From: Mizuhopecten yessoensis
Lineage: Eukaryota
DNA length: 64,000 bases
Assembly (NCBI RefSeq): GCF_002113885.1
Contig: NW_018408528.1
Coordinates: 511,252 to 575,251 of the forward strand
Direction: 5' to 3'
Shown one piece after another: positions 3,001 through 21,000 of the stretch. The position numbers are program-made. Every line of letters begins with the position of its first letter. Positions within the stretch are counted from its first letter, which is position 1.

Positions 3001-6000
3001 TAACTGCTGTCCTTTACAAAAGGCACTTTCGGGGGAAATGTTAAGAGTACATCTTTTAGCTTAAATATCATCTGTTAAGTTACAATTATTCAACACAATT
3101 TCTTATATAGTCAGTAATACATAATTTTCATAAAACTGATTTGTTTCTGCCTTTTTTTTATTCACCTTTTCTTTCTGCTTTCCTTATACAAATGCAATGT
3201 AAATGTAAACCTTTGAAAATTGTATTAAAATGACAATCAATAATTGTTTGTGTGAAAGTGGAAGAAAGATAAGTGTGTGTGAGATTTTCTGCTATTACAG
3301 ATTACATATGTGATACACATGAACATTAACTTTGCATTGTAAAAAAAACCTGAAAATAAATAAAAATAAAAATCTGTCTTTCTAAATGTGATTTTATAAT
3401 AATTGTAAAACTAAAAGTGTCAACATTGACATTTATTTCAGAATATACACTGTTGGTGTTACTTGTTTACATTAAAACAACATCAGAGTGTCACACCATG
3501 GTGATTACACTCAGTAGCTCTAATCAAAACACATGTTATTAATGATCACCTGATCCAGATCAGACAAGTGTGACCACTAGGCCACACCCATCAACTCATC
3601 CCAGGGCCAATCAGGTGCCTAGCAGGGGGTCAGCTTGGGGGGAGGGGTCAAGGCAGGGAAACCATACACCTGACCTAAGAAGGATTTCTGTACATGAGAA
3701 ATCAGCTGTTTTTAACTTAGCCAATCATATAATGTCATTTGGAAAGTGAAAAGTATTCACCTCTCCGGCCACTCAATACAAAAACCCTGACATTTTCATC
3801 AGGGTCATGTCACTTTCTTCTGACACTGCTTGAGTTAACTTCGACCTTTGCATCTTGAACCTCAGACATTTTGAGTCGAACTTGGACATTTTGAGTGACC
3901 AGTGCCTCAGAACTAGTGCTGCATCATGGATGCTTTCATTGAATCCCTCAATCAGCCATTATCTCCAGATGCTCTTGACCTTCCTGTGACCTTCAACATG
4001 TCACCTCATGACCTTCTGGATGAGGTTATCTCACAGACATTAAAAGATGAGCTGCCGGACCGTGAGTCTTTATCAGAGTATGAGTGTTCAGCCACACTGA
4101 CAGATTATGGAAGTCCAACAGAATCATGTGTGTGGGGATCATTTAATGACAATAGTGCTAGTGATTTAAACTTTGACATTGAAAACTTTGCTACGAGTGT
4201 CGGGTCATCACCTACTGAAGTGCCCCCTGGTGAAACTGTTAACTTTAATGAGCAGACAACTCCAGCGAGAAACCTGAAGAATCTGTCGCTGACCTCGTGT
4301 GAGCCAGTCTACAACAGTCCTGGTATAGACAGTCGCTTTAATGACTCACTGACCGGACTGCTGGGCAGTCCACCACCAGACAGTCCCCTCGCCAACAATC
4401 CATTCTTCAGTGACCTTCAGGCCATCCTGGTCAACGACTGTCGTGAAGACATGCTGCCACAGTCGCTGCTAGCAACTATGACGACCCAACCACAATCCAA
4501 TGTTTTTACTCGTGAGCAGGATCTACAGGAAAGTTTCAACCAACTGACAGACAGGTTTCCAGAGGATGTTAACCAGTTGTCTAGCTTCTACCGTTACCAG
4601 GCTGCTCTGGTGGAGACAGAACGTTTCCGCTCACTACATACACAGAAGTACGCCCCCGACTACCAGCGGTCACTCAACTTTCACTATGATTCCCAACTCC
4701 ATCAGATCATGACACGAGTAGAACAGAGTCTGGCTTTGTTACAGGAGTCATCCACCAGCCCATGTTCCAGTCGGGTAATTAAGCCACGCCCCCTCTTGTC
4801 TAAGAAGTCAGTGAAAGTGATGGAGGATTGGTATAAAGATCATTTAGAGCATCCCTACCCGACCGGATCCACTGTGGAGTTACTCGCAGAAAGAGGTAGA
4901 ATCAGCTGTGAGCAGGTGAAAAAGTGGTTCGCCAACAAGAGAAACAGGTCCAACAATACTCGCACACTCACAGAGATTGCCAAGGCTAAGAGGAAACGTC
5001 AGATGGCTGTTCTGTAAACTCACAGAGATGTCCAAGGCTAAGAGGAAACGTCAGATGGCTGTTCTGTAAACTCACCGAGATGTCCAAGGCTAAGAGGAAA
5101 TGTCAGATGGCTGTTCTGTAAACTCACCGAGATTTCCAAGGCTAAGAGGAAACGTCAGATGGCTGCTCTGTAAACTCACCGAGATTTCCAAGGTTAAGAG
5201 AAATGCAGAGGGCTGCTCTGTAAACTCACCAAGATTTCCAAGGCTAAGAGAAATGTCAGAGGGCTGCTCTGTAAACTCACCGAGATTTCCAAGGCTAAGA
5301 GAAATGTCAGAGGGCTGCTCTGTAAACTCACCGAAATGTCAAAGGCTAAGAGAAACGTCAGATGGCTGCTCTGTAAACTCACCGAGATTTCCAAGACTAA
5401 GAGAAATGTCAGAGGGCTGCTCTGTAAAACCTTCTGGGACAATTCCAAAACTATAGGACTCTAACATTTGTGATCTACAATATGTGACTAGTTATTCATT
5501 GGAATGTTGCCAATTTAAAAGACTATACAACCAATACCATGGAAATCTACCTAAGACTAGTATAGAGCTCAGACTATATTACCAAGTGTATATAGGCTAT
5601 CAAGAAAAAAAGTGCTATGTACATATCATTCTATAAACAGTGTTGATTACAACAAATTGTGCAAACACCAAAAATAACCACATTTGTGTCAAACAACATT
5701 GTTACTTTATTTTGTGTATAAATATTAAACCTTGAACTTTGATATGATTTTTTTTTTTTTTATTCATATATGAATTCCATGTATTGAAAATGTCAAGATA
5801 CCTATTTCAATGGTAATGATATTTTTGTGCTTTTCACACATACATTTATTCATCAAGTGATTTTACAGATTTCAAACATATTATTTGAAAAGCAGTGATG
5901 CGCTAAAATAACATTCAACTATCAAAAGTATCTTAATATTGTTTTATTTGACATGCAAAGCATATCAGGTTTTCTGAGTAGTAAGAAAATCTTCCATCCT

Positions 6001-18000: not shown

Positions 18001-21000
18001 CTTACCTTGCTTTCTCAACTGTTAAGGTTTGACAAAGCATTGCCTCACCCCAAGCCCGAATGATGCTTATCTTGCTTTCTCTAACTTGTTAAGTTTGACA
18101 AAGCAACTGCTTCATCCCAAGACTGAATTATGCTTACCTTGCTTTCTCTAACTTGTAAAGTTTGACAAAGCAGTGCCTCACCCGAAGCCTGAATGAAGCT
18201 TACCTTGCTTTCTCTAACTTGTTAAGTTTGACAAAGCAGTGCCTCATCCCAAGCCTGAATGAAGCTTACCTTGCTTTCTCTAACTTGTTAAGTTTGACAA
18301 AGCAGTGACCCATCCCTAGTCTGACTGATGCTGGACAGCTGGGGTTTGTTCTCAATGCTTTCTTGTAATAAGCCAAAGCTCCTCGGAAATCCTTTTTGTT
18401 GAAAGCAATACAAGCTTTCCCCAGTAATGATGGAATGTTGTTGCTGGTCTGTACAAAAATACAATTGTAATCACTGTGACTTAAAATTAAACCTCATTAT
18501 ATTCCACTATTTGTGTAGCAAATTCTGCCGTTATTAAGGGTCTGATATCAATGTTTTACAGAAAATTACTCTCAAATATCAATGTTTATTGAAAACTGCA
18601 TTACACCATATGTTAATTTACTGTAAAGTAATTTACACTCACACATTTAAAAGGGGCAATTTGTACAGCGACAAAATGAAACTATTTAAACAGGTGAGGG
18701 AACCTATGTTATATTAATATTTAAGATACCATCAGGTTTACATAAAACAAATTAAAGAAGTTAGATAAGTTTAAGAAACAGATGAAGTAACATAATCTCT
18801 AGTTTGGGTACTTCAGTCTGTTTCTGTAACAGCCTAGAATGCAAGTTTAGTCGTGTACTTCAGTCTATTATAGTCCAGAGTCATGTGTTTATAATACTAC
18901 TAGTACTGTATTTAAACAATGATACCTGCTCTAGTTTGTGTGTTGTCATGTTTGTATAACAAAATACATACCTGTCCCAACACAAAGTTAAACTGGGCAT
19001 CAGCCTGGTCCATCTTGTCTCCTTCCAACAGACAGAAGTATGCTCTCCCCAACAAGTGACTCTGTCAAAAACAACACAAGTGTTAGATGTTTGACAGATA
19101 GAAGTATGCTCTCCCCAACAAGTGACTCTGTCAAAAACAACACAGATGTTAGATGTTTGACAGACAGAAGTATGCTCTCCCCAACAAGTGACTCTGTCAA
19201 AAACAACACAAGTGTTAGATGTTTGACAGATAGAAGTATGCTCTCCCCAACAAGTGACTGTCAAAAACAACACAGATGTTAGATGTATGATTTGGTTTGT
19301 TTGTGTTTATGTCCTATTGACAGCTATGGTCATTTAAGGACGTGCCAGATTTTGGTGGTTGAGGGAAGCTGGAGTCCTCGGAGAAAAACCACGACATACA
19401 GCCAGTACCTGGCGACTGCCCTACGTAGGCCTCGAATCAGCGAACCAGTGTTGCAGGGCTAGTGGTAGCAGAAGGTCAGACGCCTTAACCACTTGGCCAC
19501 CACAGGTCATAGATGTATGACAGACAGAGGTAAGCTTTAACAAGCGACTCTGTAAAACAGCCAGTTTAATGGAGTCACAATTTACACATCAGCAAAATTT
19601 ATAAGATTGACAGCTTTAAATATTATTGTACATCTAAAACTAGAATTGTAAGCTGAAGGTTAACTTAAATACATTTATATGTGAGTAAAAAAAATCATGG
19701 GAATTATAAGCTTGACTTCATATGATGGTGAATAACTTTACAAGGTTTCCAAGAAACTGAATCCAAACTTATGAGCGGATATAACTGTAATAATCGAAAA
19801 GGATATTAACTTCAACTGTAAATAAAAAATACAAGACATTAATGACTACCTTGCTGATAAAGTGTACAATGGTTCATTGAAATCTACAAAGTGATTTCAA
19901 AGTAGTCTGGACATGTTATTTTTTTCTGAACTCAAGTTTGGAAAATGTTTGCCTACAAACAGGTGACAGGCTAATCGGCAGATAACCTGATTCCAGTCCC
20001 TGATAATTTTGTTGTGTCACTGTTGGTATATCATACACCTCTAGCAGTTCCAGCAACATAGTTTTATGCTCCTAAACATTCTTACCATGCTGCTATTTTA
20101 AGTATTTTTTTCATTAACAATAGAGAGAATTTCACATGCTGCTATCATTTTTCAGTGTGCTGTGGTTTTATATAGCATACTGCCTTAACTTTATTTACCA
20201 CTATAATTTTAGCTAGTATGCTGCTGTTCTTTTACTTACCATGCATTAACTTTATTCCGTATGCTGTTGGAATTTTACTTAATTATCCTGTTGTAAAGAA
20301 GAAACACATGTTATAATACTTTCAACATTTTCTAAAGAGAACATTAAATTCTTATCTTGAGGATCTATTTACCTGGTCGTACATGATGATTTTATCAGCG
20401 GTGGTGTAGAGGAGAGTAGCCTGGGTGAACAGTTCTCTCTTCTTGTCCTTGTTCTTCTCTTTGTGGGCCTTCTGTACATAAAATGCAGCCAGTGTGTCAA
20501 GTGCTCGCATCTGATCACGCTCGAAGTTTGGGTAGTCCAGTCCCGCATCTGTTCGGGATGCATCTAGGATCTTCACAAAGTCCTCTACATAGTTGGACTT
20601 GTAATACTCCAGCTGAAAAATGGAACAAATCATTTATGCATTTGAAAATTACGTGAGAAATCAATGTAGCTTTAAAAACTTTCACTGTTACTTTTGGTTA
20701 TTGTTACTGAATGATTTATTTCTATCGTCACCTATATTCCTATTTAATTAGTATGCATTTCATGTGCACAACTACAATCCGCCATGTAGGATATTGGCAA
20801 TACCACAGTAGCATCAGTGAAATAAAATGTATGTATATCTGAAATCATTTGCATAATACGGTGTTAAAACCTGACTGTTATATATTTATCATCCTGGTAG
20901 TTCCCCAGAGCTGATTAATAATTAATAAATAGTGAGTAGATTGTGAAATATGCTGGATTAGTAATTACATGGACATTTCAAAAAGTGAAAATGAAATTAC

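What the first reader, a model, noticed from the sequence alone, without database searches (positions are those of the whole stretch)
4967..19290. Recurrent pattern: minisatellites seeded at coding-exon boundaries
Seen: three independent arrays within 15 kb each start inside coding sequence and expand outward across a boundary: a stop codon (52 bp), a donor (66 bp) and an acceptor (66 bp). In each, read-through in the coding frame meets TAA within one unit. Inference: either a mutational process tied to exon edges, or a filter where only arrays with built-in stops survive. If genome-wide, this would be a little-described source of splice-site redundancy. Ascertainment is a caveat, because the region is rich in tandem repeats generally.
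[Added by the scan's program, not by the reader: the finding's places include an assembly gap (unread letters, written N; its length is only estimated) at 9421 to 9798. Whether the letters on both sides are continuous or in frame is not known: test that first.]
Basis: inference. Interest (0 to 1): 0.65.

Follow-up and report, generated by a model that had tools for sequence, protein, structure and literature searches.

The report
Minisatellites straddling scallop exon boundaries
Three short tandem-repeat arrays in a scallop genome each copy the end of a coding exon together with its stop codon or splice signal; this is a known, largely harmless kind of duplication, and finding three together here is not clearly more than chance.

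Summary
The window matches the Yesso scallop (Mizuhopecten yessoensis) and is not human. A 52-bp x9 array copies the last 17 codons plus the TAA stop of a TALE homeobox gene. Two 66-bp arrays in CTR9 copy the end of exon 5 plus its GTAAG donor (6.4 copies) and the branch point, pyrimidine tract, AG and start of exon 4 (4 copies). The copy joined to each exon body encodes the conserved protein; the extra copies are decaying. The gap (9421-9798) lies in CTR9 intron 12, crosses no reading frame and touches no array. The in-frame TAAs come from the signals themselves, and TAA within 66 nt is equally common at ordinary CTR9 donors (8 of 14). Enrichment depends on the null: whole-array shuffling expects 2.0-3.8 boundary overlaps (3 observed); a stricter seed model expects 0.4-1.1 (P 0.004-0.08, post hoc). 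Donor-spanning minisatellites are already described in human F7, 6-16, CBS, LAMIN B2 and PDGF. Best reading: ordinary minisatellites in a genome group rich in tandem repeats, tolerated because the copy next to the exon body is used. RNA data and a genome-wide test are needed.

The parts
3926..5017 (+). Single-exon CDS of a TALE-class homeobox gene (363 aa plus TAA), lying antisense inside CTR9 intron 15
   Evidence: tblastn P0001 100% over residues 1-363. Pfam Homeobox_KN 1e-11 and Homeodomain 5.7e-07. C-terminus ...TLTEIAKAKRKRQMA[V/A]L conserved in Pecten, Ylistrum and Argopecten.
4966..5428 (+). 52-bp x9 minisatellite. Unit 1 is the last 17 codons plus the TAA; copies 2-9 lie after the stop (presumed 3'UTR).
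   Evidence: TRF. Copy table: 9 of 9 copies end in TAA, and copies 5-9 are shortened to 50-51 bp. Identity matrix. No copy elsewhere in the window.
18270..18448 (-). CTR9 coding exon 5 (aa 159-218, ends two bases into a codon), whose last 61 nt form the first repeat unit
   Evidence: Residues 119-228 are identical in Pecten and Ylistrum; Argopecten differs at 2 positions.
17911..18332 (-). 66-bp x6.4 minisatellite. Unit = 61 nt of exon 5 end + GTAAG. It places pseudo-donors in intron 5 at 18203, 18137, (18070 broken), 18005 and 17939.
   Evidence: TRF. GT intact in 5 of 6 full copies; copy 1 is 84.8-90.9% identical to the others, while copies 2, 3 and 6 are 92.4-97.0% identical to each other.
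18972..19061 (-). CTR9 coding exon 4 (aa 129-158), whose first 34 nt belong to the acceptor repeat unit
19028..19290 (-). 66-bp x4 minisatellite. Unit = CTAAC motif + pyrimidine tract + AG + first 34 nt of exon 4. Pseudo-acceptor AGs end at 19258, 19194 and 19128; the authentic one ends at 19062.
   Evidence: TRF. Copy 2 is 100% identical to authentic copy 4, and copies 1 and 3 are 95.5% identical, so a 132-bp dimer was duplicated.
19291..19509 (.). 219-bp insertion of a dispersed repeat that split an older fifth copy off the acceptor array. The 11-bp string TAGATGTATGA occurs at both edges (19280-19290 and 19510-19520).
   Evidence: junction sequences; a diverged copy lies at 48192-48367 (78-80% identity). 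No tRNA or Rfam match.
19510..19559 (-). Degenerate fifth copy of the acceptor unit
   Evidence: Local alignment score 61, against a mean of 15.1 and a maximum of 25 in 300 shuffles.
9421..9798 (.). Assembly gap (378 N) inside CTR9 intron 12. It is flanked by 625-bp exact duplicates (8796-9420 and 9799-10423) and by two arrays of the same 31-bp unit.
17463..17658 (-). CTR9 exon 6, the acceptor partner of the reiterated donor
20373..20612 (-). CTR9 exon 3, the donor partner of the reiterated acceptor

Best explanation
These are three ordinary, locally born minisatellites in a group of genomes where tandem repeats are the commonest repeat class. In each case a 52- or 66-bp tandem duplication happened to include a terminal coding signal (a stop codon, a donor, or an acceptor module). 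The copies were then amplified further by slippage or unequal exchange. Such arrays leave the protein unchanged because the extra copies fall on the non-coding side of the signal. Translation ends at the first TAA. The spliceosome is inferred to use the most upstream donor and the acceptor joined to the exon body. Purifying selection therefore keeps only the exon-attached copy, while the others drift. A seed lying wholly inside an exon would alter the protein and be removed, so among arrays that touch coding sequence the boundary-spanning ones are those expected to survive. SHOWN: the anatomy, conservation of the attached copy, decay of the extra copies, and local origin. INFERRED: which splice sites are actually used, and that the arrays are neutral.
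For: The organism and genes were identified by 100% matches to M. yessoensis CTR9 (P0076) and by homeobox orthologues.

The exon-attached copies encode the conserved protein. The homeobox C-terminus is shared by 3 other scallop genera. CTR9 residues 119-228 are identical in Pecten and Ylistrum, with 2 differences in Argopecten.

The extra copies are degenerating. Array 1 copies 5-9 have lost 1-2 nt, donor copy 4 has GT changed to AT, and acceptor copy 1 has a 2-nt deletion.

The sub-family structure is typical of minisatellite growth. TRF reports a 102-bp alternative period for array 1. Copies 2, 3 and 6 of the donor array resemble each other more than copy 1, and the acceptor array is a duplicated 132-bp dimer.

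The units have no copies elsewhere in the window, so they are not transposon cargo. Arrays make up 12.5% of the window. Published scallop tandem-repeat fractions are 11.3% (C. farreri, PMC5700196) and 21.7% (A. pleuronectes, PMC10225492) (passages read).

All three RefSeq isoforms agree at both junctions where they cover them. X1 and X2 differ only at residue 954, and X3 lacks the N-terminal part.

Precedent: in human F7 IVS7 only the most upstream of the identical donors is used (PMC1557585).

Whole-array shuffling expects 2.0-3.8 boundary overlaps against 3 observed.
Against: Under the generative seed-placement null, 3 boundary-spanning seeds exceed expectation: 0.36-0.48 expected in the whole window (P = 0.004-0.010) and 0.97-1.11 in the two-gene span (P = 0.056-0.082). 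A real bias toward exon edges is therefore not excluded.

The RefSeq XP_ models are predictions that favour open frames, so they are not independent evidence for which donor or acceptor is used.

Pseudo-acceptor copy 2 is 66 of 66 identical to the authentic module. Under the rule that the first AG downstream of a branch point is chosen (as stated in PMC3048548), an upstream copy might compete, so the acceptor array may not be harmless.

Two arrays in one gene share the period of 66 bp without sharing sequence. This is unexplained.
Confidence: 0.72

Rival explanations
1. Exon edges are genuine hot spots for minisatellite birth in this genome, for example because of a replication or repair feature tied to exon-intron junctions.
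For: The seed-placement null gives P(>=3) = 0.004-0.010 for the whole window and 0.056-0.082 for the two-gene span. 3 of the 9 arrays in the two-gene span straddle a boundary.
Against: The result depends on the null: whole-array shuffling gives P(>=3) = 0.31 and 0.87. It rests on n = 3 in one window that was chosen because it looked striking. Lowering the TRF threshold added no further boundary-spanning arrays among the extra low-score rows (65 rows against 26). The three units begin and end at unrelated positions relative to the boundary (0-1 nt, 5 nt and 32 nt beyond it). No shared motif was found.
Confidence: 0.15
2. A selective filter keeps only those boundary arrays that carry an in-frame stop, so that mis-spliced or read-through products are truncated or degraded.
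For: In-frame TAA is present in 9 of 9, 6 of 6 and 2 of 3 extra copies respectively.
Against: The stops are intrinsic to the copied signals. Ordinary boundaries do the same: 11 of 14 donors have some stop and 8 of 14 have TAA within 66 nt; 13 of 14 acceptors have some stop and 9 of 14 have TAA; 77.6% of intronic 22-codon windows hold a stop. Acceptor copy 1 has no stop for 86 codons. In F7, pseudo-sites that would keep the frame open are still unused (PMC1557585 discussion passage).
Confidence: 0.06
3. The arrays have been co-opted. The decoy donors and acceptors would tune CTR9 output through unproductive splicing and mRNA decay, and the nine 3'UTR repeats would act as a multivalent regulatory element for the homeobox mRNA.
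For: 5 intact strong pseudo-donors (AAG|GTAAG) and 3 complete pseudo-acceptor modules. CTR9 is a conserved regulator gene (name given by sources).
Against: The extra copies drift and lose signals, with no sign of constraint on them. No expression data are available here. Conservation of the arrays in other scallops could not be checked.
Confidence: 0.08
4. The arrays are assembly artefacts, like the two exact duplications nearby.
For: The same scaffold stretch carries a 625-bp and a 4612-bp 100%-identical duplication abutting N characters, and a 302-bp spacer that recurs at 99.7% identity.
Against: Array copies differ from each other (84.6-100% identity, with indels). No N adjoins them. One array was split by a mobile-element insertion with a target-site-like direct repeat at both edges. 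Copy number may still be wrong in a draft assembly.
Confidence: 0.03

Closest known systems
Human F7 intron 7 37-bp VNTR, with the 6-16, CBS, LAMIN B2 and PDGF minisatellites listed alongside it (PMC1557585; abstract and passages read)
   Same: The first monomer spans the exon-intron boundary, so the authentic donor is followed by identical pseudo-donors. In F7 only the most upstream donor is used. The scallop CTR9 exon 5 array has the same anatomy.
   Different: The scallop unit carries 61 nt of exon and only 5 nt of intron, whereas F7 carries 4 nt of exon and 33 nt of intron. Site usage and copy-number polymorphism are untested here. This is an invertebrate gene. The same 15 kb also holds an acceptor-side case and a stop-codon-side case, for which my two searches returned no described minisatellite counterpart.
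Intron gain by tandem duplication of an exonic AG|GT proto-splice site (PMC2891723, passages read; PMC3265369 and PMC4974935, seen in the search listing only)
   Same: A tandem duplication supplies redundant splice signals and leaves the coding sequence intact after splicing.
   Different: No new intron is created here. The copies sit inside pre-existing introns of 611 nt and 1311 nt, whose partner sites lie outside the arrays.
Internal tandem repeats that modify human gene structure at exon-intron boundaries (PMC2812944, passages read)
   Same: Minisatellite-size units (about 30 bp, about 4 copies) at exon-intron boundaries can alter or add splice sites.
   Different: Those cases change the transcripts. 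Here the annotated protein is unchanged and identical to the orthologues across the junctions.
Transposon-borne satellite-like arrays of bivalves (for example Helentron-carried repeats in the Pacific oyster; PMC7492417, search listing and abstract start only)
   Same: Short dispersed tandem arrays are abundant in bivalve genomes.
   Different: The three units are made of the host gene's own exon and intron sequence and have no other copy in the window.

Membership tests
Minisatellite whose first monomer spans an exon-intron boundary (F7 IVS7 type) | Head-to-tail array of units of roughly 10-100 bp in several copies | tested here: met
   TRF: 66 bp x6.4, 88% matches.
Minisatellite whose first monomer spans an exon-intron boundary (F7 IVS7 type) | The first monomer contains the authentic exon-intron junction | tested here: met
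   Exon 5 ends at 18270 and unit 1 spans 18330-18265.
Minisatellite whose first monomer spans an exon-intron boundary (F7 IVS7 type) | The donor sequence is reiterated downstream as pseudo-sites | tested here: met
   GCAAG|GTAAG is present in 5 of 6 full copies; copy 4 reads GATAAG.
Minisatellite whose first monomer spans an exon-intron boundary (F7 IVS7 type) | Only the most upstream donor (or the first two) is used in transcripts | not testable with these tools
   No transcript reads are available. The RefSeq models use the first donor, but they are ORF-guided predictions.
Minisatellite whose first monomer spans an exon-intron boundary (F7 IVS7 type) | Copy number varies between individuals (VNTR) | not testable with these tools
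   Only one assembly is available.
[quoted passage not shown] | The new intron is bounded by the two copies and its length equals the duplication length | tested here: not met
   Intron 5 is 611 nt and intron 3 is 1311 nt, against 66-bp units. The partner splice sites at 17659 and 20372 lie outside the arrays.
Transposon-borne satellite array | The unit or its flanks recur at other loci | tested here: not met
   blastn of each unit against the window finds hits only inside its own array. Only this window was tested, not the genome.
Assembly duplication artefact | Copies are identical and the junction is marked by N | tested here: not met
   Array copies are 84.6-100% identical with indels, and no N is adjacent. 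The feature is met instead by 8796-9420 / 9799-10423 and by 19454-24065 / 24370-28981.
CTR9 (Paf1-complex TPR protein) gene | Sequence identity to annotated CTR9, with TPR repeats | tested here: met
   Exon 3 peptide is 100% identical to P0076, named CTR9 homolog isoform X2 by NCBI. 15 exons map to residues 1-654. Pfam TPR_1 1.6e-09 on exon 5.
TALE-class homeobox gene | Homeodomain of the KN/TALE type | tested here: met
   Pfam Homeobox_KN E = 1e-11, 44.9 bits against a cut-off of 24. A distant hit is named 'Spiralian-TALE-C homeobox protein'.

The most novel reading that the evidence does not exclude
In scallop genomes, where tandem repeats are the commonest repeat class, minisatellite birth is biased toward exon edges. 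Boundary-spanning arrays would then be a systematic source of redundant stops, donors and acceptors. The CTR9 exon 4 array would be a natural acceptor-side counterpart of the F7 donor model for studying splice-site choice, because one of its pseudo-acceptor modules is 66 of 66 identical to the authentic one.
Probability: 0.15. Interest if true: 0.55.

Novelty: new member of a known kind. Interest (0 to 1): 0.25.

Why it matters
If the clustering is chance, as I think most likely, the value is modest and practical. It gives clean invertebrate examples of boundary-spanning minisatellites. It also warns that gene models in tandem-repeat-rich genomes face several equally good splice sites. The acceptor-side array is the most useful piece: four complete branch-point, pyrimidine-tract and AG modules, one of them identical to the authentic module, sit upstream of an exon of a highly conserved gene. 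That is a natural experiment on 3' splice-site choice, comparable to what F7 intron 7 provided for 5' sites. A genome-wide excess at exon edges would point to a mutational link between exon structure and tandem duplication, which would be of wider interest.

Tried and rejected
(1) One search had an off-by-one error for donors whose exon ends mid-codon (exons 5, 12, 15). Its donor counts are discarded and replaced. Its acceptor and intronic-window parts are unaffected.
(2) TRF at minimum score 30 was run to enlarge the sample. It added only tiny short-period arrays, none on a mapped boundary, so it did not sharpen the test.
(3) ARAGORN and Rfam at E <= 0.01 over 17000-30500 found nothing, so the 219-bp insertion remains unclassified.
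(4) Literature searches for acceptor-side minisatellites returned 2 papers and 1 paper, none describing such a case. Two searches are weak evidence of absence. One search was rejected for a formatting sign and was resent.
(5) Transposon origin of the three units was rejected.
(6) Intron gain by duplication was rejected.
(7) Conservation of the arrays in Pecten, Argopecten or Ylistrum could not be examined.
(8) Supplementary tables with the tandem-repeat content of P. yessoensis itself (PMC10225492, Table S13) were closed, so that figure is not given.
Exons were searched singly and were located with the public protein P0076.
(10) Unannotated exons in 29-64 kb may exist. Only a RASSF8/10-like gene was recognised there. 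Adding 4 approximate boundaries for it moved the seed expectation from 0.43 to 0.48.

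
Full report
WHAT THE WINDOW IS. The window is eukaryotic (30-44% G+C in 2-kb steps) and rich in tandem repeats. TRF finds 14 distinct arrays covering 8,002 of 64,000 bases, or 12.5%. A single-exon peptide from the - strand is 100% identical to 'RNA polymerase-associated protein CTR9 homolog isoform X2 [Mizuhopecten yessoensis]' (P0076; accessions). 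The + strand ORF is the window's own 363-aa TALE homeobox protein (P0001), with 84-87% identical orthologues over the searched C-terminal part (residues 200-366) in Pecten maximus, Ylistrum balloti and Argopecten irradians. The contig is therefore Yesso scallop and not human. I did not build or search a joined coding sequence. Exons were searched one at a time and located by tblastn with the public protein.

THE GAP, TESTED FIRST. N runs lie at 9421-9798 (378 N) and as single Ns at 24066 and 24369. Fifteen CTR9 coding exons map on the - strand from 22882 down to about 6795 (residues 1-654). The gap lies in intron 12. Exon 12 (11362-11179) ends with the first base of codon 533, and exon 13 (8177-8089) supplies the other two bases and continues with residue 534. 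No reading frame crosses the gap and no residue of P0076 is missing across it. The 625 bp before the gap (8796-9420) are 100% identical to the 625 bp after it (9799-10423), and both copies adjoin arrays of the same 31-bp unit. The two sides thus look like one sequence written twice, and true continuity across the gap cannot be established. I filled nothing. The gap is about 4 kb from the nearest array of the finding on one side and about 8 kb on the other, so it does not affect them.

- Array 1 (4966-5428, 52 bp x9). Unit 1 is the last 17 codons plus the TAA of the homeobox CDS. All 9 copies end in TAA. Copies 5-9 have lost 1-2 nt.
- Array 2 (17911-18332, 66 bp x6.4, - strand). Unit 1 is the last 61 nt of CTR9 exon 5 plus GTAAG. 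5 of 6 full copies keep the GT.
- Array 3 (19028-19290, 66 bp x4, - strand). The unit is 32 nt of intron 3 (a CTAAC motif, a pyrimidine tract and AG) plus the first 34 nt of exon 4. All 4 copies keep these signals, and copy 1 has a 2-nt deletion just after the AG.
- The TAA statement is right for array 1 (the gene's own stop) and for array 2 (AGG TAA, 4 nt into the intron). It is right for 2 of the 3 extra acceptor copies (TAA at codon 15). It fails for acceptor copy 1, whose frame stays open for 86 codons.

WHICH COPY IS THE GENE. The homeobox C-terminus ...TLTEIAKAKRKRQMA(V/A)L-stop is shared by the three other scallop genera. CTR9 residues 119-228, which cross both junctions, are identical in Pecten and Ylistrum and differ at two positions in Argopecten. 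The copies joined to the exon bodies are therefore the ancestral coding sequence. RefSeq isoforms X1 and X2 differ only at residue 954, and X3 lacks the N-terminal part, so no isoform differs at an array junction. These models are ORF-guided predictions, so they do not prove which sites the cell uses.

HOW THE ARRAYS GREW.
- Array 1. Copies 1-4 form one group (92.3-96.2% identical to each other) and copies 5, 6, 7 and 9 form another (94.1-98.0%).
- Array 2. The exon-attached copy is 84.8-90.9% identical to the rest, whereas copies 2, 3 and 6 are 92.4-97.0% identical to each other. One early duplicate apparently drifted and was then amplified inside the intron.
- Array 3. Copy 2 is identical to copy 4 (66 of 66) and copy 1 resembles copy 3 (95.5%), so a 132-bp dimer was duplicated.
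- A degenerate fifth copy lies at 19510-19559 (alignment score 61, against a shuffle maximum of 25). It is separated from the array by a 219-bp insertion that has the same 11-bp string at both edges and a 78-80% identical copy at 48192-48367. The array therefore predates a mobile-element insertion.
- None of the three units occurs elsewhere in the window. They are local copies of the host gene and not transposon cargo.

ARE THE BUILT-IN STOPS SPECIAL? No. Each TAA is part of the copied signal: the stop codon, the TAA inside AG|GTAAG at an exon that ends two bases into a codon, and the TAA inside CTAAC.
- Of the 14 CTR9 donors without an array, 11 meet some in-frame stop and 8 meet a TAA within 66 nt.
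- Of the 14 acceptors, 13 have some stop and 9 have a TAA within 66 nt upstream (12 and 8 of 13 without exon 4).
- Of 12,760 intronic 22-codon windows, 77.6% hold a stop and 45.4% hold a TAA (these introns include the arrays and the duplicated flank).
- The 52-bp unit is not a multiple of three, so any reading frame returns to the coding-frame TAA within three units. This follows from arithmetic.

IS THREE AT BOUNDARIES MORE THAN CHANCE? The answer depends on the null model.
It gives 3.8 when the 9 arrays of the two-gene span are shuffled within that span (P(>=3) = 0.87). That null is generous, because an intron-born array cannot really land on an exon.
- In the generative null I collapsed every array to one unit, removed the gap and the two exact duplicates, and placed a seed of the unit's length at random. 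It expects 0.36-0.48 hits in the whole window (P(>=3) = 0.004-0.010) and 0.97-1.11 in the two-gene span (P(>=3) = 0.056-0.082).
- So there is a nominal excess under one null, based on three events, in a window picked because it looked striking.
- Lowering the TRF threshold added no further boundary-spanning array.

MECHANISM. The best reading is an ordinary minisatellite plus purifying selection. A tandem duplication that includes a terminal signal puts its extra copies on the non-coding side, so the protein is unchanged. This holds provided translation stops at the first TAA (certain), the first donor is used and the last acceptor is used (both inferred). For donors this matches the experimental result in human F7 intron 7, where identical pseudo-donors are functional but only the most upstream one is chosen (PMC1557585, abstract and passages). 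That paper also names the 6-16, CBS, LAMIN B2 and PDGF minisatellites as having the same layout.

The acceptor side is less secure. One pseudo-acceptor module is identical to the authentic one, and the usual rule favours the first AG after a branch point (as stated in PMC3048548). Something in the context, presumably the exon body and its donor, must then direct the choice, or else some CTR9 transcripts are wasted. Two literature searches found no described acceptor-side minisatellite, which is weak evidence of absence.

COMPARISON AND NOVELTY. The donor array meets the three structural criteria of the F7-type class; usage and polymorphism could not be tested. [quoted passage not shown] Tandem repeats are reported as the most abundant repeat class in two other scallop genomes: 11.3% in C. 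farreri and 21.7% in A. pleuronectes (passages). The figure for this species is in a supplement I could not open. I rate this a new member of a known kind, of low to moderate interest, with the acceptor array as the most useful item.

WHAT STAYS OPEN. Actual splice-site usage, copy-number polymorphism, presence of the arrays in other scallops, and the genome-wide rate.

Noticed in passing
window 19454-24065 and 24370-28981; single N at 24066 and 24369; spacer 24067-24368; 29366-29667: A 4612-bp block carrying CTR9 exons 1-3 is present twice at 100% identity, with single Ns at the junctions. The 302-bp spacer between the copies is a 99.7% copy of 29366-29667, and the second block begins inside a dispersed repeat. 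This looks like an assembly misjoin. The RefSeq 153-aa 'CTR9-like' model (P0075) maps equally to both copies and probably exists only because of the duplication.
   Followed up: partly
window 8796-9420 and 9799-10423: The 625 bp on each side of the 378-N gap are identical, and each copy adjoins an array of the same 31-bp unit (8223-8766 and 10423-10949). The gap may be an unmerged overlap. It was not filled.
   Followed up: partly
window 3926-5017 (+) within CTR9 intron 15 (below 6795, - strand): The TALE homeobox gene lies antisense inside a CTR9 intron that runs off the window start. CTR9 residues after about 657 are not found in the window.
   Followed up: partly
window 17911-18332 and 19028-19290: Both CTR9 boundary arrays have exactly the same period, 66 bp (a multiple of three), although their units share no sequence. 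No explanation was found.
   Followed up: partly
window 35725-38888: An 18-bp unit is repeated about 177 times (3.2 kb). It lies about 550 bp beyond the last long ORF (39439-40044, - strand) of a RASSF8/10-like gene whose RA domain is at 40450-41772 (Pfam 3.1e-10).
   Followed up: partly
window 12259-13296 and 13334-14061; also 30585-30655: Arrays with long units (133/267 bp and 158 bp) fill much of CTR9 intron 10. The 158-bp unit has a 77% identical fragment at 30585-30655, so this one may belong to a dispersed repeat family.
   Followed up: no
window 19291-19509 and 48192-48367: A 219-bp dispersed element flanked by an 11-bp direct repeat, with no tRNA or Rfam match. It is possibly a SINE-like mobile element of scallops.
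   Followed up: partly
window 6888-6910: A 9-bp x2.7 micro-repeat sits in the pyrimidine tract 5 nt upstream of the CTR9 exon 15 acceptor. It is close to the boundary but does not span it.
   Followed up: no
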